DNA of 29,888 nt from Burkholderiales bacterium (GCA_035691445.1 DASSJA010000340.1:1-29888), one strand, 5' to 3'; shown: positions 12,030 through 25,828, counted from the first letter of the stretch. Made by a program: numbers and translations. Notes: a model not told the origin generated them from the sequence alone.

Positions 12030-12992
12030 ATGAGCGACATCCTCTGGGCGGCCTCCCACCCGGCCGCGTTTCCCTGGCTGAGCCTCGTGCTGGGGCTGGT
12101 CGTCGGCTCGTTTCTCAACGTCGTCATCCATCGGCTGCCCAAGATGATGGAGCGGAGCTGGCGGGAGGAATGCGCAGAGATCGAGGGCGCTCCCGCCGCA
12201 AACGCGGCAGGGGAACCCTACGGTTCCCCCGCAACCCCTCCCGCCACAAACGCAGCAGGAGAACCCTACGGTTCCCCCGCACCCCCTCCCCAACCGAAAA
12301 CCACGGAGACGTACAACTTGTTCGTGCCTCGCTCGCGCTGCCCCGCCTGCGGTCACGGCATCCGCGCCGCCGAGAACATCCCTCTCGTTTCATGGGCGTT
12401 GCTGCGCGGGCGCTGCTCGGCGTGCAAGGCGCGCATCAGCGTGCGCTACCCTCTTGTCGAACTGCTCGCCGGGATCGCCGCGGCGTGGTCGGCGACACGG
12501 TTCGGCTTCGGGCCGGCGGCGTTCGCGGCTATGGTGTTCCTGTGGTGCATCCTCGCCGCGGGCTTCATCGATTTCGATACGCAGCTGCTGCCCGATGCCA
12601 TCACGCTGCCCCTTTTGTGGCTGGGGCTGCTCCTCAACATCGCCGGGGTCTTCACCGACCTGCGCTCGGCGGTGATCGGCGCCGCCGCAGGATATCTGGT
12701 CCTGTGGAGCGTGTACTGGCTGTTCAAGCTCGCGACCGGCAAGGAAGGGATGGGATTCGGCGATTTCAAGCTGCTTGCCGCCATCGGCGCGTGGTGCGGA
12801 TGGCAGGTCCTGCCGCTTGTGATCGTGCTCTCGTCCTTCATCGGCGCCGCGGTGGGAATCGCCCTCATGATCTTCGCGCGTCGCGGTCGCAGCGTGCCCA
12901 TCCCCTTTGGACCCTTTCTGGGCGCCGCGGGGATCGTCGCATTGTTCTGGGGGCCTCAGCTCACCCGCCAGTACCTCAACCACTTCATGTGA
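12030..12992 (+). CDS. pilD: Prepilin peptidase/N-methyltransferase with a ~30-aa repeat insertion
   Basis: GSFLNVVIHRLP, RSRCPACGH, NIPLVSW..LRGRCSAC, IDFDTQLLPD, GMGFGDFKL, IPFGPFL; both catalytic Asp motifs present. Confidence 0.96.
   Translation: MSDILWAASHPAAFPWLSLVLGLVVGSFLNVVIHRLPKMMERSWREECAEIEGAPAANAAGEPYGSPATPPATNAAGEPYGSPAPPPQPKTTETYNLFVPRSRCPACGHGIRAAENIPLVSWALLRGRCSACKARISVRYPLVELLAGIAAAWSATRFGFGPAAFAAMVFLWCILAAGFIDFDTQLLPDAITLPLLWLGLLLNIAGVFTDLRSAVIGAAAGYLVLWSVYWLFKLATGKEGMGFGDFKLLAAIGAWCGWQVLPLVIVLSSFIGAAVGIALMIFARRGRSVPIPFGPFLGAAGIVALFWGPQLTRQYLNHFM
12190..12290. repeat. Two tandem 48-bp units (plus a partial third) with an internal palindrome, inside pilD
   Basis: Units start at 12190, 12238 and 12286 (CTCCC). 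Unit 1 contains GGGGAACC-ctac-GGTTCCCC; unit 2 has one stem mismatch. Encodes APAANAAGEPYGSPAT / PPATNAAGEPYGSPAP. Confidence 0.92.
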
Positions 12993-13699: not shown

Positions 13700-14446
13700 G
13701 TGATCACTTACGAGTATCCGCTCAACGAGCGAATCCGGACGCTGCTGCGCCTCGAAAACCTGTTCGAGCGCGCCAACCATTTTCTGGTCAAGGAAGAGGA
13801 CTCGCGCGCGCATCACGCCGCGCTCCTGACGCTGTTCGAGATTCTCGAAGTAGCAAGCCGCGCCGATCTGAAGTCGGACCTCCTGCAGGAGCTCGAGCGG
13901 CAGAAACAGATCCTCCAGGGATTTCGCAACAATCCACAGATCGCGGAGAGCGCTCTCAAACAGGTCCTCGCGGACATCGAGCGCACGAGCGCGGCGCTCT
14001 TCGCCATGACCGGCAAGATCGGCCAGTACCTTCGGGAGAACGATTGGCTGATGTCGATCAAGCAGCGCACCGGGATTCCGGGCGGCGCCTGCGAGTTCGA
14101 CCTGCCCTCGTATCATTTCTGGCTGAACCGCGACGGGCACCGGCGCAACACCGACCTGCACGCGTGGATCTCTCCGTTGCTGCCGATCAAAGAGGCTTCG
14201 TCCATCGTGCTGAAGCTGCTGCGCGAGGGCGGCCGGCCGGTCAAGCACGTCGCCCAGCGCGCGCTCTTCTCGCAGATGCTGGGCGGTAAGGCCTCGCAGA
14301 TGGTACGCATCCGGCTGCCGCGCAGCTCTCAGTACATCCCCGAGATCAGCGCCAACAAATACGCGTTGAACGTGCGTTTCGGTACTTTCGGCACGCGGGT
14401 GTGCGAGGCTGACGTCGAGTTCGAGCTGACCTTCTGCAACCTGTAG
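13700..14446 (+). CDS. zapD: Cell division protein ZapD
   Basis: [74 protein letters not shown]. Confidence 0.96.
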
Positions 14447-22005: not shown

Positions 22006-22191
22006 CTAGACGAGCATAAATGCTCGTTCCAGTATCAAAAGTCCAAAGAAGAGCAGGGCAAAAATCAGGGCGTACTTGAATACGCGAAGGGCAAAACGAA
22101 GGTACTTCTTGTCCCGGGTGAGAAGGTACAGGACGACCCCGGTAACGGTGGCGAGCACCACCAAGATTGCCGCAATGCGCAGAGCGAGCAC
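22006..22191 (-). CDS. Small (61 aa) two-helix membrane protein of unknown function
   Basis: Hydrophobic helix, basic linker (TRDKKYLRFALR), hydrophobic helix. GTG start 18 nt after the lpxC stop. Confidence 0.75.
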   Translation of the reverse strand: MLALRIAAILVVLATVTGVVLYLLTRDKKYLRFALRVFKYALIFALLFFGLLILERAFMLV

Positions 22192-22209: not shown

Positions 22210-23127
22210 TCAGCCGGCTGGCAGGGCAAACAGCCGGGAGAGCGCGACCGGAGCATCCTCCTCCCGTTCAAAGGTCACCCATTCCCAAGTTTCCTTGGAG
22301 GCGAGTGCCGCGCGCAACAGTCGGTTGTTCAGGGCATGGCCCGATTTATGAGCCGAAAAGCTGCCGATCAGCGGGTGCCCGATCAGGTAGAGATCGCCGA
22401 TCGCGTCGAGCAGCTTGTGCTTGACGAATTCGTCGCTGTAGCGCAACCCTTCGGCGTTCAGCACGCGGTATTCGTCGACGACGATGGCGTTGTCGAGGCT
22501 CCCCCCCAGCGCGAGGCCTGAATCGCGCAGGGCTTCGACATCCTGGATGAAACCGAAGGTGCGCGCGCGCGCGACTTCCTTGACGTAGGAAGTTTCAGCG
22601 AAGTCGACGAAAGCGGTTTGCGCCGACTGCTCGAACGCCGGGTGATCGAACTCGATCGAGAACGAGAGCTTGAAGCCCTCGAAGGGTTCGAAGCGCGCCC
22701 ACTTGTCTCCGTCTTTCACCTCGACCGTGCTTTTGATCCGAAAAAAGCGCTTCGGCGCGGGTTGCTGTTCGATCCCCGCCGATTGAATCAGAAACACGAA
22801 GGGCGCGGCGCTCCCGTCCATGATCGGCACTTCGGACCCCGTGAGATCGACGTAAACGTTGTCGATGCCCAGTCAGGCGAATGCGGACATCAGGTGTTCG
22901 ACCGTAGCGACTTTGGCTCCGTTCGCCTCGAGCGCGCTGCACAGCCTCGTGTCCGTCACCTTGAAGGCGTCGGCGACGATATCGATCGGAACGGGCAGAT
23001 CGATGCGCCGGAATACGATCCCCGTATCAGGCGCCGCGGGCCGCAATGTCAGCGCGACCTTTTCACCGGTGTGCAAGCCCACACCGGTGGCGCGAATCAC
23101 GGACTTTAGGGAGCGCTGCTTGAACAT
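22210..23127 (-). pseudogene. lpxC: UDP-3-O-acyl-GlcNAc deacetylase LpxC interrupted by one in-frame TGA (22873-22875); true pseudogene, sequencing error or readthrough not resolved
   Basis: [80 protein letters not shown]. Both halves share one frame; total 918 nt, a normal LpxC length. Confidence 0.9.
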
Positions 23128-23169
23128 TTGCGTCGCCGCAGCAATGACGTAGCCGATTGAAAGTACGGG

Positions 23170-23178
23170 ATTTTAGCA
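23170..23178 (-). promoter_or_regulatory. Candidate extended -10 promoter for lpxC
   Basis: TG-c-TAAAAT, 42 nt upstream of the lpxC ATG. Confidence 0.55.
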
Positions 23179-23188
23179 CAGAGCCCGA

Positions 23189-23216
23189 CCTCGCCGGCCC
23201 GGAATTTCCGGCGAGG
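23189..23216. other. GC-rich 9-bp hairpin between the small ORF and the lpxC promoter
   Basis: CCTCGCCGG (23189-23197) / CCGGCGAGG (23208-23216), 10-nt loop, no U-tract on the minus strand. Confidence 0.6.
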
Positions 23217-23239
23217 CGCGCCCTGCTGCCAGCCCTTTT

Positions 23240-23389
23240 TCAGTGCGGCCGCTTGCGCAGGTAAGCAGGAACGAACGCCACGGTGCGGATCAGCACGGGG
23301 GCGGTTCGCCCGCGGAGTTGCACCGCGGGTCGAACAACCAGGGGCTTGCGCAGATAGCGAGGCATGCCGGGCCGTTTGGCTGTGCTCAT
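23240..23389 (-). CDS. Putative 49-aa small protein with two FtsZ C-terminal-peptide-like motifs
   Basis: Context is ftsZ TAG-GGAGAATCC-ATG (SD GGAG, 5-nt spacer). Translation: MSTAKRPGMPRYLRKPLVVRPAVQLRGRTAPVLIRTVAFVPAYLRKRPH*. Below the ORF-track length cutoff. Confidence 0.65.
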   Translation of the reverse strand: MSTAKRPGMPRYLRKPLVVRPAVQLRGRTAPVLIRTVAFVPAYLRKRPH

Positions 23390-23398
23390 GGATTCTCC

Positions 23399-24550
23399 CT
23401 AGTCCGCCTGCTTGCGAAGGAAAGCCGGGATGTCGTACTTGTCGACTCCGTTCGCCTGGAGCGCTTCGATGGTGGAAGCGCGGTTCTTGCGGATTACCGC
23501 CGGCATCTCGTCGAGCACGCGGAAGTCCACCCCTGCGACCGGCATGTTGTCGGTGCCGGTTTTCTGCACCAGCTTCGGCTTGGCCACTCGCGCGACCTGC
23601 GGCTGGCCCAGGCCGGTCGCGATCACGGTGACGCGCAGCTCCTCGCCCATGGGATCGTCGTACACCGCGCCGAAGATGATGGTTGCGTCGTCCGCGGCGA
23701 AACCGCGTATGGTATTCATCACCTCCTTGGTCTCGCGCAGTTTCAGGCTCGATTTGTTGGCGGTGATGTTCACCACGACGCCCCGCGCGCCGGACAGATT
23801 GACTCCTTCGAGGAGTGGACAAGCGACCGCCTGCTCGGCGGCGATGCGCGCGCGATCCACGCCCGAGGCAGCGGCCGAGCCCATCATCGCCATGCCCTGC
23901 TCGGCCATTACCGTGCGCACGTCCTGGAAATCCACGTTGATGAGGCCGGGCACGTTGATGATCTCGGAGATCCCGGCGACCGCGTTCTTCAGCACGCTGT
24001 CGGCGGCGGAGAATGCGTCCTCCATCGACACATCGTCGCCCAATACTTCTTCGAGCTTCTCGTTGAGGATCACGATCACCGAATCGACGTGCTGGGACAG
24101 CTCCTCGATACCGAGCTCTGCAGCCTGCATCCGGCGCACGCCCTCGAACGAGAACGGCTTGGTCACCACCGCAACGGTCAGGATACCCATCTCCTTGGCG
24201 ACCTCCGCGACCACCGGCGCAGCACCTGTCCCGGTGCCACCGCCCATTCCGGCGGTAATGAAGGCCATGTGCGAACCGTGCAGCGCGTCGGCGATCTGGT
24301 CGCGGGCCTCGAGCGCCGCCGAGCGACCGGCTTCGGGCTTGGCTCCCGCGCCCAGACCCGAGGATCCGAGCTGGATCTGATTCTTCGCCTGAGTGCGCGA
24401 CAGCGCCTGCGCGTCGGTGTTGGCGGTGATGAATTCGACGCCCGCCACGCCGTTCCGGATCATGTGGTCGACGGCGTTGCCGCCCGCGCCGCCGACACCG
24501 ATCACCTTGATCACGGTGCCGCTCAATGTGCTTTCGACGACTTCAAACAT
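23399..24550 (-). CDS. ftsZ: Cell division protein FtsZ
   Basis: IKVIGVGGAGGNAV, NTDAQAL, GLGAGAKPE, tubulin motif GMGGGTGTG, KPFSFEG, GLINVDFQDV, C-terminal DIPAFLRKQAD. ATG 24550 after AAGGAGG. Confidence 0.99.
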   Translation of the reverse strand: MFEVVESTLSGTVIKVIGVGGAGGNAVDHMIRNGVAGVEFITANTDAQALSRTQAKNQIQLGSSGLGAGAKPEAGRSAALEARDQIADALHGSHMAFITAGMGGGTGTGAAPVVAEVAKEMGILTVAVVTKPFSFEGVRRMQAAELGIEELSQHVDSVIVILNEKLEEVLGDDVSMEDAFSAADSVLKNAVAGISEIINVPGLINVDFQDVRTVMAEQGMAMMGSAAASGVDRARIAAEQAVACPLLEGVNLSGARGVVVNITANKSSLKLRETKEVMNTIRGFAADDATIIFGAVYDDPMGEELRVTVIATGLGQPQVARVAKPKLVQKTGTDNMPVAGVDFRVLDEMPAVIRKNRASTIEALQANGVDKYDIPAFLRKQAD

Positions 24551-24598
24551 GCTTACCTCCTTCCGGGTGAAATGAAAAAACTCTGCCTGCAAGCACGG

Positions 24599-25828
24599 TT
24601 AGAAATTGTGCTGAAACCATTCGCGCATCCTTCTTCCGACCTGACGCAGCGATCCGCCCTGGCGCGCGATGAGTCCGCGCTGCGTCTGCACCACCCCCTC
24701 GAGCAGGAGACCCACTCCGGTGGCGTAGCGCGGGCTGCGGATCACGTCGGCCAGCGAGCCGGTGTAGCGCGGAATGCCGAGCCGCACCGGCATGTGAAAA
24801 ATCTCCTCGCCCAGCTCGACCATGCCCTGCATCACCGCCGAACCGCCGGTGAGCACGACTCCCGAGGACAGCAACTCCTCGTAGCCGGAATCGCGGAGCA
24901 CCTGCTGGATGAGGGAATAGAGCTCCTCGACGCGAGGCTCGACGACTTCGGCGAGCGTCTGGCGTGAAAGCATCCGCGGCGGGCGGTCGCCCACGCCCGC
25001 CACCTCGATCATCTGGCCGGCCTCGGCGAGCTGCCTGAGCGCGCAGCCGTGATGGACCTTGAGTTCCTCGGCCTCGGCGGTGGGCGTGCGCAGCGCCATG
25101 GCGATGTCGTTGGTGATCTGATCGCCAGCGATCGGCACGACCGCCGTGTGGCGGATCGCGCCTTCGCGGAACACTGCGATATCGCTGGTCCCGCCTCCGA
25201 TGTCGACGAGGCACACGCCGAGCTCTTTCTCGTCCTCGGTCAGCACTGCCTGCGAGGAGGCGAGCGGCTGCAGGATCAGGTCATTCACCTCCAGCCCGCA
25301 ACGGCGCACGCACTTGACGATGTTCTGCGCGGCCGAGACAGCGCCGGTGACGATGTGCACCTTTACTTCGAGCCTCACGCCGCTCATGCCGAGCGGCTCG
25401 CGCACGCCGTCCTGGCCGTCGATGATGAATTCCTGGGTGAGGATGTGCAGCACCTGCTGGTCGGTGGGAATGGGCATCGCGCGTGCGGTTTCTATCGCGC
25501 GCTCGACATCGGTCTGCGTAACCTCCTTGTCCTTGATCGCCACCATGCCGGTGGAGTTGAAGCTCTTGATGTGGCTCCCCGCGATCCCGGTGAAGACGCG
25601 CTCGATCTTGCAGTCGGCCATCAGCTCGGCTTCCTCGAGTGTTCGCTGTATGGCGTTCACCGTCGCTTCGATGTTCACGACTACGCCCTTCTTCAGGCCC
25701 TTGGATTCGTGCCCTCCCATGCCGACGATGTCCATGCGCCCGTCGGGGAAGAGCTCGGCGACGATCGCCACGACCTTCGAGGTGCCGATGTCCAGGGCGA
25801 CGATGAGGTTCTTGTTTTCCTTCGCCAT
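24599..25828 (-). CDS. ftsA: Cell division protein FtsA
   Basis: LDIGTSKV, GLKKGVV, EPLGMSGVRLE, LVDIGGGTSD, AGDQITNDIA, EAEELK, VVLTGG, PRYATGVGLL, C-terminal amphipathic helix. Confidence 0.99.
   Translation of the reverse strand: MAKENKNLIVALDIGTSKVVAIVAELFPDGRMDIVGMGGHESKGLKKGVVVNIEATVNAIQRTLEEAELMADCKIERVFTGIAGSHIKSFNSTGMVAIKDKEVTQTDVERAIETARAMPIPTDQQVLHILTQEFIIDGQDGVREPLGMSGVRLEVKVHIVTGAVSAAQNIVKCVRRCGLEVNDLILQPLASSQAVLTEDEKELGVCLVDIGGGTSDIAVFREGAIRHTAVVPIAGDQITNDIAMALRTPTAEAEELKVHHGCALRQLAEAGQMIEVAGVGDRPPRMLSRQTLAEVVEPRVEELYSLIQQVLRDSGYEELLSSGVVLTGGSAVMQGMVELGEEIFHMPVRLGIPRYTGSLADVIRSPRYATGVGLLLEGVVQTQRGLIARQGGSLRQVGRRMREWFQHNF

What the first reader, a model, noticed from the sequence alone, without database searches (positions are those of the whole stretch)
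23240..23389. Unannotated 49-aa protein behind ftsZ that carries two mimics of the FtsZ C-terminal peptide
Seen in sequence: nine nt after the ftsZ stop, an ATG with a GGAG SD opens a 49-codon ORF. Its C-terminus VPAYLRKRPH* aligns without gaps, stop included, to this genome's FtsZ tail IPAFLRKQAD*. The DNA is gtt cct gct tac ctg cgc aag cgg ccg cac tga versus atc ccg gct ttc ctt cgc aag cag gcg gac tag. In the core codons the differences are synonymous (P, L) or conservative (I to V, F to Y), and even the stop codon differs while staying a stop. A second copy, MPRYLRK, lies at residues 9-15. The protein has 9 Arg, 3 Lys and no Asp or Glu, and both motifs lack the Asp that precedes I-P in FtsZ. 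Established: the FtsZ conserved C-terminal peptide (D-I-P-x-F-L-R) is the docking site for FtsA, ZipA, ZapD, MinC, SlmA and ClpXP; ftsA and zapD are both in this window. Inference: this is a co-transcribed, bivalent FtsZ-tail mimic, probably born by duplication of the ftsZ 3' end. It could titrate or cross-link FtsA/ZapD or shield FtsZ from ClpXP. I know of no described chromosomal small protein of this type.
Basis: partly seen in the sequence, partly recalled or inferred. Interest (0 to 1): 0.92.

Follow-up and report, generated by a model that had tools for sequence, protein, structure and literature searches.

The report
Small protein copying FtsZ's docking tail
Directly behind the cell-division gene ftsZ, one genus of uncultured soil Burkholderiales keeps a real, selected gene for a 49-residue, very basic, disordered protein. 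It carries two copies of the short peptide that FtsZ uses to dock onto its partners, so it is probably a built-in competitor or modulator of that docking, a kind of regulator I found no description of.

Summary
Window 23240-23389 (-) is a 49-codon ORF that starts 9 nt after the ftsZ stop, behind a GGAG. It carries MPRYLRK (residues 9-15) and VPAYLRKRPH-stop; the FtsZ tail is IPAFLRKQAD-stop.

- **Not chance:** in the six-frame translation of the whole MAG, [ILVM]-P-x-[FY]-L-R-[KR] occurs 6 times. Three of these are the FtsZ tail and the two ORF motifs.
- **A real gene:** all 28 same-genus genomes with ftsZ assembled have it, always right after ftsZ. Start and SD are conserved, indels are in frame, and pN/pS is 0.31 (0.14-0.17 in the motif-bearing ends) against 1.2-2.0 in four of five other frames.
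- **Genus-restricted orphan:** no Pfam or NCBIfam match. Sister genera have only a hairpin and the lpxC promoter-like box there.
- **Shape:** AlphaFold predicts disorder, with helical turns only at the two motifs.
- **Partners:** FtsA, ZapD and ZipA are present. MinC was not found in the family.
- **Origin:** duplication of the ftsZ 3' end is not detectable in the DNA.
- **Weak points:** the Leu matching FtsZ L378 is Gln/His in 27 of 111 clusters, always with Leu/Ile four residues later. The Asp before I-P is missing. Binding is untested.

The scan had already found this family on another genome (e1-3989379), with the same reading.

The parts
23240..23389 (-). Gene for a 49-aa basic small protein (net charge +12, no acidic residue)
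   Evidence: The ORF was read. Orthologues are present in 28 of 28 genus genomes that have ftsZ assembled. Pooled pN/pS is 0.31, against 1.2-2.0 in four of five other frames, and third-position variability is 0.30 against 0.14 and 0.09. In public data the family forms 111 clusters at 90% identity.
23395..23398 (-). Shine-Dalgarno GGAG, inside the 9-nt gap between the ftsZ stop and the ATG
   Evidence: A GGAG or GGGAG box lies a few nucleotides before the start in most of the 29 loci, although the gap to ftsZ varies from 8 to 107 nt.
23345..23365 (-). N-terminal FtsZ-tail-like motif MPRYLRK (residues 9-15)
   Evidence: R11, Y12, L13, R14 and P16 are at least 90% conserved. pN/pS of codons 1-16 is 0.17. 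AF2 places a helical turn at residues 11-13.
23273..23299 (-). Most conserved block, PVLIRTVAF (residues 31-39). It has no counterpart in FtsZ.
   Evidence: V32, L33, R35, T36, V37 and F39 are invariant in 64 aligned sequences. Up to four synonymous codons are used per invariant residue.
23243..23272 (-). C-terminal FtsZ-tail-like motif VPAYLRKRPH, ending at the stop. Its Pro is ninth from the C-terminus, as in FtsZ.
   Evidence: P41, Y43, R45, R47 and H49 are invariant. pN/pS of the C-terminal 19 codons is 0.14. AF2 places a helical turn at residues 42-44. The Leu/Gln switch at residue 44 is coupled to residue 48.
23402..23431 (-). FtsZ's own conserved C-terminal peptide, IPAFLRKQAD
   Evidence: It is identical in all 29 genus loci and in 13 sister-genus loci, and it matches the E. 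coli tail quoted in PMC4117426.
23399..24592 (-). ftsZ. The open frame is as listed; the likely start is the ATG at 24550.
   Evidence: Pfam Tubulin and FtsZ_C domains.
23189..23216 (-). GC-rich hairpin (CCTCGCCGG / CCGGCGAGG) just after the small ORF. It is probably the 3' end or stabiliser of the ftsZ-small ORF transcript; it has no U tract.
   Evidence: It is present after the ORF in 27 of 29 genus loci (all but L030 and L031), with changes on both arms (for example CTCACCGG/CCGGTGAG and CCCCTCCGG/CCGGGGGG). Most sister-genus loci with lpxC downstream show a comparable hairpin directly after ftsZ. The consensus terminator scan finds nothing here.
23170..23180 (-). Extended -10-like box TGTGCTAAAAT, upstream of lpxC
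   Evidence: A GCTAAAAT-type box recurs in most genus loci. A TAnAAT-like box recurs in several sister-genus loci. It is the best-aligned non-coding part of the sub-threshold Rfam Xoo8 match. It is a consensus resemblance only; the strict promoter scan found no -35/-10 pair.
24599..25828 (-). ftsA, a candidate docking partner
   Evidence: Pfam FtsA and SHS2_FTSA domains.
13700..14446 (+). zapD, a candidate docking partner
   Evidence: PF07072 match at 265 bits.

Best explanation
**Shown.** The ORF is a real protein-coding gene. It sits in the ftsZ transcription unit, between the ftsZ stop and the hairpin that precedes the lpxC promoter-like box. It has its own SD and ATG a few nucleotides after the ftsZ stop.

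**Shown.** Its product is a 49-53-residue peptide, strongly basic and predicted to be disordered. The selected parts are two short motifs of the form hydrophobic-P-x-Y/F-L-R-K/R, plus a PVLIRTVAF block.

**Inferred.** The two motifs imitate the conserved C-terminal peptide of FtsZ (I-P-A-F-L-R-K). Each folds into a short helix in the pockets that normally receive the FtsZ tail. In this genus those pockets would be on FtsA, ZipA and ZapD; MinC was not found.

**Inferred.** A single FtsZ tail binds weakly and FtsZ polymers gain avidity through multivalency. A two-motif peptide made alongside FtsZ could therefore compete with FtsZ for these docking sites, or bridge two of them. That would tune membrane tethering or bundling of the Z ring.
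For: **Gene reality:**
- Orthologues occur in 28 of 28 genus genomes with ftsZ assembled. They always sit right after ftsZ, with ATG (GTG once) and in most loci a GGAG-type SD. The frame relative to ftsZ and the ftsZ stop codon both vary.
- Lengths are 49, 50 or 53 residues, so the indels are in frame.
- Median NG86 dN/dS is 0.18 and pooled pN/pS is 0.31, against 1.2-2.0 in four of five other frames.
- The ORF alignment has no conserved RNA structure (alifold -2 kcal/mol).

**Transcription:**
- A contig from one RNA-Seq library bridges the ftsZ 3' end and the ORF. A contig from a soil metatranscriptome covers the whole ORF. The four ORF differences listed are third-codon-position changes, synonymous by my reading of the codons.

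**Motif significance:**
- Of the 6 genome-wide six-frame hits to the motif, 3 are the FtsZ tail and the two ORF motifs.
- The Pro is ninth from the C-terminus in both proteins.
- P, Y, R and K/R of the C-terminal motif are invariant, and the position matching I374 is always aliphatic.

**Helix-face constraint:**
- Where the L378-equivalent residue is Gln or His (27 of 111 clusters), the residue four positions later is always Leu or Ile.
- At least 3 such switches are forced on the ftsZ tree.

**Structure and partners:**
- AF2 predicts disorder, with helical turns only at residues 11-13 and 42-44.
- FtsA and ZapD are in the window. ZipA_C is in the own genome and in 27 of 30 genus genomes.

**Literature:**
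- Free FtsZ tail peptide competes with FtsZ for SlmA. Single tails bind ZipA and FtsA at about 20 and 50 uM (PMC4117426).
- C-terminal FtsZ fragments inhibit E. coli in vivo and are predicted to bind FtsA and FtsZ (PMC11831152).
Against: - No binding or phenotype data exist, and no complex could be modelled with these tools.
- The Asp that precedes I-P in FtsZ is absent from both motifs.
- The L378-equivalent residue, critical for ZipA, FtsA, MinC and SlmA in E. coli, is Gln or His in 27 of 111 clusters.
- The Pro of the N-terminal motif is Arg in some divergent members.
- The most invariant block, VLIRTVAF, has no FtsZ counterpart. So does the invariant terminal R-x-H, where FtsZ has Q-A-D. 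Something other than tail mimicry is therefore also under selection.
- No FtsA column co-varies with the Leu/Gln allele type.
- A +12 charge on 49 residues could by itself drive unrelated binding to nucleic acids, to acidic FtsZ or to membranes.
- The gene is confined to one genus.
Confidence: 0.45

Rival explanations
1. The peptide acts on FtsZ itself rather than on FtsZ's partners. A polycationic, disordered peptide made next to acidic FtsZ binds the FtsZ core or linker. It could use the site where FtsZ's own tail is proposed to fold back. The result would be promotion or inhibition of lateral association or assembly.
For: - Net charge is +12 with no acidic residue.
- The gene is adjacent to ftsZ and has its own SD.
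- FragFold predicts that C-terminal FtsZ fragments also bind FtsZ itself (PMC11831152).
- A B. subtilis study reports tail-core binding (PMC12747378 abstract).
Against: - Pure charge effects would not need invariant P, Y and H, or the coupled Leu positions.
- No modelling or data are available here.
Confidence: 0.15
2. The resemblance to the FtsZ tail is convergent or incidental. Under this reading the protein is a basic small protein with another job, such as binding RNA, the ribosome, DNA or the membrane. It would merely have been born in the ftsZ-lpxC spacer.
For: - Its composition is extremely basic.
- The most conserved block, PVLIRTVAF, and the terminal R-x-H are unlike FtsZ.
- The family is a genus-restricted orphan.
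- There is no DNA trace of descent from ftsZ.
Against: - Two copies of a motif that occurs only 6 times in the whole six-frame genome lie within 55 codons of the third copy, the FtsZ tail.
- The spacing to the C-terminus is the same as in FtsZ.
- Two prolines limit any helix to about 7 residues, too short for a typical membrane-targeting amphipathic helix (inference).
Confidence: 0.2
3. The peptide is a ClpXP-directed decoy or substrate. Its basic C-terminus (L-R-K-R-x-H) would occupy the ClpX site that recognises the FtsZ C-terminus and so modulate FtsZ turnover.
For: E. coli ClpXP recognises the FtsZ C-terminus, including R379 and K380, and MinC competes with ClpXP there (PMC3983244). R45, K/R46 and R47 are conserved in the small protein.
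Against: - The terminus does not fit the quoted C-motif-2 pattern (R/H-x-K/R-K-hydrophobic), because it ends in His.
- This reading gives no explanation for the N-terminal motif.
- It was not tested here.
Confidence: 0.08
4. The peptide has no function. The stretch would be a neutral remnant of a duplication, or it would matter only as RNA: an ftsZ 3' UTR, an lpxC leader, or a Xoo8-like sRNA.
For: There is a sub-threshold Rfam match to RF02243 Xoo8 at 23055-23351 (40.1 bits, E 7.7e-10). Xoo8 is the RNA cloned from the ftsZ-lpxC spacer of Xanthomonas oryzae (PMC3039613).
Against: - The match is far below the gathering score of 90 bits. It is carried by the lpxC 5' coding end and the -10-like box, not by the ORF.
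- The codon-position pattern, the in-frame indels, the conserved start and a dN/dS of 0.18 point to selection on the protein.
- The ORF has no conserved RNA structure.
- The promoter-like box for lpxC lies downstream of the ORF and hairpin.
Confidence: 0.03

Closest known systems
The conserved C-terminal peptide of FtsZ (CCTP/CTP, E. coli D-I-P-A-F-L-R-K-Q-A-D). It docks FtsA, ZipA, ZapD, MinC, SlmA and ClpX.
   Same: The core is hydrophobic-P-x-aromatic-L-R-K. The C-terminal copy ends the protein with the same spacing, Pro ninth from the end. Both are embedded in disorder with a short helix predicted at the motif. The gene is adjacent to ftsZ.
   Different: It is free-standing rather than tethered to a polymerising GTPase. 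It has two copies on one 49-aa chain. The Asp before the motif is missing, and Tyr replaces Phe. The terminus is basic R-x-H instead of Q-A-D. The Leu can move one helical turn. Binding is untested.
Artificial free FtsZ tail peptides and fragments (Ztail peptide competing for SlmA, PMC4117426; inhibitory FtsZ 354-383 fragments, PMC11831152)
   Same: Each is a soluble peptide bearing the tail motif that competes with FtsZ for partner sites. This shows the proposed mechanism is physically plausible.
   Different: Those are laboratory constructs of the native sequence, and they are monovalent. This is a natural, separately encoded, bivalent and divergent copy kept by selection.
Small protein modulators of FtsZ such as MciZ, SulA, lambda Kil and P1 Icd (Kil and Icd appear; the others are from my own knowledge)
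   Same: They are small proteins that act on Z-ring assembly. Kil needs ZipA.
   Different: There is no sequence relationship. Those proteins are stress, sporulation or phage factors that target the FtsZ core, or act via ZipA, without imitating the tail. This one is constitutively placed in the ftsZ operon.
sRNA-Xoo8 (Rfam RF02243) and P. aeruginosa PA4406.1: RNAs reported from the ftsZ-lpxC spacer (PMC3039613)
   Same: Same genomic slot, with a hairpin plus a -10-like box before lpxC. There is a sub-threshold covariance-model match.
   Different: The match is below threshold and is carried by lpxC and the -10-like box. The ORF part shows protein-level rather than RNA-level conservation.

Membership tests
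FtsZ C-terminal peptide motif class (a short linear motif; membership by motif, not by homology) | Core pattern: aliphatic-P-x-aromatic-L-R-(K/R) | tested here: met
   MPRYLRK and VPAYLRK compare with IPAFLRK. The motif occurs 6 times in the six-frame genome, and 3 of those are these. It is conserved across 29 loci and 111 clusters.
FtsZ C-terminal peptide motif class (a short linear motif; membership by motif, not by homology) | Position at the extreme C-terminus, followed by a short variable tail | tested here: met
   For the C-terminal copy, the Pro is ninth from the end in both proteins in all 29 loci. The N-terminal copy is internal.
FtsZ C-terminal peptide motif class (a short linear motif; membership by motif, not by homology) | Acidic residue (Asp) directly before the aliphatic-Pro | tested here: not met
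   Phe and Gly (or Ser) precede the two motifs. Most members have no acidic residue at all.
FtsZ C-terminal peptide motif class (a short linear motif; membership by motif, not by homology) | Aliphatic residue at the position of E. coli L378, critical for ZipA, FtsA, MinC and SlmA (PMC4117426) | tested here: inconclusive
   Leu in 84 of 111 clusters. Gln or His in 27 of 111, always with Leu or Ile four residues later. At least 3 switches are forced on the ftsZ tree.
FtsZ C-terminal peptide motif class (a short linear motif; membership by motif, not by homology) | Binds the tail pockets of FtsA, ZipA or ZapD | not testable with these tools
   No complex prediction or assay was available. The partner genes are present.
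Descent from the ftsZ 3' end (duplication origin) | Nucleotide similarity to the ftsZ tail beyond what the shared amino acids and codon usage give | tested here: not met
   19.1 of 30 nt observed against 18.6 expected, and 13.9 of 21 against 13.3. Synonymous sites are saturated (dS about 1), so an old duplication cannot be excluded.
Genuine protein-coding small gene | Purifying selection in this frame only, conserved start and SD, in-frame indels | tested here: met
   pN/pS is 0.31, against 1.2-2.0 in four other frames and 0.44 in the codon-aligned antisense frame. ATG in 28 of 29 loci and GTG in 1, with lengths of 49, 50 or 53 residues.
Known protein families (Pfam, NCBIfam), including known small division inhibitors | Significant profile match | tested here: not met
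   0 families at E up to 10 in Pfam and NCBIfam. A profile search of 1.84 billion representatives found only 2 family clusters plus 2 repeat artefacts.
Rfam RF02243 Xoo8 (ftsZ-lpxC spacer sRNA) | Score at or above the gathering threshold, with conserved structure over the element | tested here: not met
   40.1 bits against a threshold of 90. The alignment is carried by the lpxC 5' end and the -10-like box. The ORF alignment has essentially no consensus structure.

The most novel reading that the evidence does not exclude
An endogenous, operon-encoded, bivalent decoy of the FtsZ docking tail. This would be a new class of divisome regulator that sets how much FtsA, ZipA or ZapD is available to FtsZ polymers, or cross-links these partners. 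It would have arisen recently, within one genus, in the ftsZ-lpxC spacer, and it would have been kept in a family where the Min system was not found.
Probability: 0.4. Interest if true: 0.85.

Novelty: new variant of a known kind. Interest (0 to 1): 0.68.

Why it matters
The FtsZ tail is the hub through which membrane anchors, bundlers, inhibitors and proteases all reach the Z ring. How access to that hub is shared out is an open question.

A natural free-standing copy of the tail, made from the same transcript as FtsZ, would be the first known cellular regulator that works by imitating the hub peptide. It would also be a clean example of a young orphan gene that gained function by motif mimicry.

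It is unusually easy to test. The FtsZ tail of this lineage is identical to that of E. coli, so the peptide can be tried directly against E. coli FtsA, ZipA, ZapD, MinC, SlmA and ClpX.

If it binds, the divergent flanks may show how to make tighter tail-site ligands. Those flanks are VLIRTVAF upstream and the basic R-x-H end.

Tried and rejected
1. **Wider homology.** I ran Pfam and NCBIfam, a profile search of 200 family genomes, 1.84 billion representatives and ESM Atlas features. Nothing turned up outside the genus. The weak hits (E about 0.003; P0113, P0114) are noise or repeats.
2. **Duplication origin.** The DNA comparison with the ftsZ tail, checked against a codon-usage simulation, shows no excess identity.
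3. **lpxC leader peptide.** Rejected, because the hairpin and the -10-like box lie between the ORF and lpxC.
4. **RNA element.** The Xoo8 match is sub-threshold and lies outside the ORF's conserved logic. The ORF has no conserved structure.
5. **Read-through extension of FtsZ.** The frame and the stop codon are not conserved.
6. **Co-variation with FtsA.** I fetched 26 genus FtsA sequences. No column tracks the Leu/Gln type, and the top columns lie in the C-terminal linker. This is uninformative. I did not extend it to ZipA or ZapD.
7. **Promoter and terminator scan.** No hits.
8. **A single-chain AF2 model of FtsA-FtsZ-ORF read through the stops.** Considered but not run, because the tool returns no contacts, so it could not show where the motifs dock.
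9. **Checking the lpxC TGA in reads.** The DNA-run contigs do not cover that codon.

Full report
**1. What is there**

On the minus strand, ftsZ (23399-24592; Pfam Tubulin and FtsZ_C) ends in ...DKYDIPAFLRKQAD-TAG. Nine nucleotides later (GGAGAATCC) an ATG at 23387-23389 opens a 49-codon ORF that ends with TGA at 23240-23242.

The product is MSTAKRPGMPRYLRKPLVVRPAVQLRGRTAPVLIRTVAFVPAYLRKRPH. It has 9 Arg, 3 Lys and no acidic residue. ftsA lies directly upstream of ftsZ, and zapD is at 13700-14446 (+).

**2. Is the motif resemblance chance?**

I laid out the whole assembly, a 2.35-Mb, 437-contig MAG that is 70% complete, and translated it in six frames, giving 4.6 million residues.
- The pattern [ILVM]-P-x-[FY]-L-R-[KR] occurs six times.
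- Three of those are the FtsZ tail and the two motifs of this ORF, all within about 55 codons.
- These three are the only hits that end in Lys.

At a rate of 1.3e-6 per residue, two hits in one 49-residue frame next to the third is not a chance event.

**3. Is it a gene?**

Yes.
- A protein search of 60 relatives found it in 28 of 30 genomes of the same genus, at 55-86% identity, and nowhere else at a meaningful E-value.
- The two genus genomes without it also lack an assembled ftsZ. So it is present in 28 of 28 genomes where the locus exists.
- In all of them it follows ftsZ directly. It has ATG (GTG once) and in most loci a GGAG-type SD.
- Around it, things vary: the gap to ftsZ runs from 8 to 107 nt, the ftsZ stop is TAG, TGA or TAA, and the frame relative to ftsZ takes all three values.
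- Lengths are 49, 50 or 53 residues, so the indels keep the frame.

On a codon alignment of the 29 loci:

| Measure | Value |
|---|---|
| Median NG86 dN/dS | 0.18 (dS about 1.06) |
| Pooled pN/pS, whole ORF | 0.31 |
| pN/pS, codons 1-16 | 0.17 |
| pN/pS, variable middle | 0.68 |
| pN/pS, last 19 codons | 0.14 |
| pN/pS, same columns in four other frames | 1.2-2.0 |
| pN/pS, codon-aligned antisense frame | 0.44 |

The 0.44 in the antisense frame is expected, because that frame shares the wobble position. Variability by codon position is 0.14, 0.09 and 0.30, and invariant residues use up to four or five synonymous codons. The ORF alignment has essentially no consensus RNA structure.

In public data the family forms 111 clusters at 90% identity. 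All are about 49-56 residues long, and where named they are called 'hypothetical protein' in soil Burkholderiales MAGs. So the gene is not strictly unannotated.

**4. Distribution and origin**

- A profile built from 64 members (A1) found the family only in this genus among 200 genomes of the GTDB family.
- An exhaustive profile search of 1.84 billion representatives gave two true clusters and two repeat artefacts.
- Pfam, NCBIfam and ESM Atlas features gave nothing.
- I fetched the ftsZ loci of 13 sister genera, whose FtsZ is 73-84% identical. Where lpxC lies downstream, the spacer mostly holds a strong GC hairpin and a TAnAAT-like box, and no locus has a comparable ORF or motif.
- In this genus the same kind of hairpin and a TGTGCTAAAAT-like box lie downstream of the small ORF in 27 of 29 loci. 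The hairpin is at 23189-23216 and shows changes on both arms across species.

The ORF is therefore an addition to the 3' end of the ftsZ unit, made in the ancestor of one genus, and not a leader of lpxC.

The DNA does not show whether it came from a duplicated ftsZ tail. Identity between the last 10 codons of the two genes averages 19.1 of 30 nt, against 18.6 expected from the amino acids and local codon usage. For the N-terminal motif the figures are 13.9 of 21 against 13.3. With synonymous sites saturated, neither an old duplication nor convergence can be excluded.

**5. Transcription**

Public runs that hold near-identical sequence are soil and rhizosphere metagenomes, plus a few RNA libraries. 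The assembled contigs of these runs show the following:
- One contig from a root RNA-Seq library spans 23315-23540. It covers 142 nt of ftsZ and 75 nt of the ORF.
- One contig from a soil metatranscriptome spans 23239-23419, which is the whole ORF.
- The four listed differences inside the ORF (23288, 23324, 23336, 23339) all fall on third codon positions. By my reading of the codons they are synonymous.

This is compatible with co-transcription. DNA carry-over in such libraries cannot be excluded.

**6. What selection preserves**

- Invariant in 64 sequences: V32, L33, R35, T36, V37, F39, P41, Y43, R45, R47 and H49.
- At least 90% conserved: M1, R11, Y12, L13, R14, P16, P31, I34, A38 and A42.

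So both tail-like motifs are under selection. So too is a PVLIRTVAF block just before the second motif, and the terminal R-x-H; neither resembles FtsZ.

The residue matching E. coli FtsZ L378 behaves as follows:
- It is Leu in 84 of 111 clusters.
- It is Gln or His in 27 clusters, and in all 27 the residue four positions later is Leu or Ile.
- When Leu is kept, the later position is free (P, L, V, A, Q, I or S).

On an ftsZ tree of 27 genus members, well-supported branches force at least three switches. One reading is that an aliphatic side chain is required on one face of a short helix. This fits a motif that folds on binding a groove, as the FtsZ tail does on ZipA (from my own knowledge of the ZipA-peptide structure cited).

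AlphaFold2 with the family alignment predicts a disordered chain (pLDDT 65, pTM 0.17). The only helical turns are at residues 11-13 and 42-44, which are the two motifs.

**7. Partners available**

- FtsA and ZapD are in the window.
- A ZipA C-domain gene is in the own genome and in 27 of 30 genus genomes.
- MinC_C was found in 0 of 36 genomes of the family, including 0 of 30 of the genus. It was found in 10 of 24 other families of the order. MinC is therefore not a target here.
- The FtsZ tail is invariant across the genus and its sister genera, and it is identical to the E. coli tail.

**8. Mechanism**

Literature read here:
- I374 and L378 of the E. coli tail are critical for ZipA, FtsA, MinC and SlmA.
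- A free tail peptide binds weakly, at about 20 uM for ZipA and 50 uM for FtsA.
- A free tail peptide nevertheless competes with FtsZ for SlmA (PMC4117426).
- Fragments from the extreme FtsZ C-terminus inhibit E. coli in vivo and are predicted to bind FtsA and FtsZ (PMC11831152).
- ClpXP uses the same end of FtsZ (PMC3983244).

My best reading, at about 45%, is that a two-motif peptide made with FtsZ occupies or bridges the tail pockets of FtsA, ZipA or ZapD.

The rivals are:
- action on FtsZ itself (15%);
- an unrelated role for a polycationic peptide (20%);
- a ClpX decoy (8%);
- RNA-only function or a neutral remnant (3%);
- read-through extension of FtsZ (2%).

The read-through idea (note e1-5317684) is contradicted by the frame and the stop codon, which both vary. 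Only 7 of 29 loci are in frame.

A search for co-variation between the Leu/Gln allele and FtsA residues found nothing. This is unsurprising, because FtsA must still bind the invariant FtsZ tail.

**9. Comparison with the known**

Full-text searches for a natural FtsZ-tail mimic returned none. The nearest things are:
- the FtsZ tail itself;
- laboratory tail peptides;
- unrelated small FtsZ modulators;
- the RNA reported from the same spacer in Xanthomonas, sRNA-Xoo8.

The Xoo8 Rfam model matches here only below threshold (40.1 bits against 90), and mainly over the lpxC start and the -10-like box.

The scan had already met this family in another genome (e1-3989379), with the same reading. That is not independent evidence.

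**Verdict**

The mimicry reading is plausible and is the best available, but it is unproven. The duplication origin is unsupported.

Noticed in passing
window 22873-22875 (-), inside lpxC (22210-23127): lpxC carries one in-frame TGA where the relatives read have Gly: GGG, GGA or GGC in the 20 loci where the codon was printed, and Gly in 7 more. The contigs of the best DNA run do not cover this codon. An assembly or strain-level error cannot be told apart from a true pseudogene.
   Followed up: partly
whole genomes of the GTDB family: The MinC C-domain was found in 0 of 36 genomes of this family, many of them more than 95% complete. It was found in 10 of 24 other families of the order. The family appears to lack the Min system, so Z-ring placement must rely on something else.
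   Followed up: partly
window 22006-22191 (-): A 61-aa ORF with two hydrophobic segments lies just downstream of lpxC and has no Pfam match. It is conserved at 57-80% identity in 24 genus loci. It is probably a real small membrane protein.
   Followed up: partly
window 23055-23351 (-): There is a sub-threshold Rfam match to sRNA Xoo8 (RF02243; 40.1 bits, E 7.7e-10). The model evidently contains the first ~70 nt of lpxC and its -10-like box, so this 'sRNA family' is largely the ftsZ-lpxC spacer plus the lpxC 5' end.
   Followed up: yes
window 23189-23216 (-) and the same slot in L004-L045: A GC-rich hairpin without a U tract sits between the ftsZ unit and the lpxC -10-like box. It is kept across the genus and in most sister-genus loci with lpxC downstream, with changes on both arms. 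It may be a transcript 3' end or stabiliser, or an unconventional terminator.
   Followed up: partly
window 12030-12992 (+), pilD: The prepilin peptidase N-terminal domain (84 profile positions) is spread over residues 20-158 of the protein. This is consistent with the in-frame insertion noted earlier (e1-5317686).
   Followed up: no
window 23240-25828 (-): In this MAG, ftsA, the listed ftsZ open frame and the small ORF all lie in one reading frame, separated only by stops and 6-9 nt. The small ORF's frame relative to ftsZ is not conserved in relatives, so this looks accidental.
   Followed up: yes
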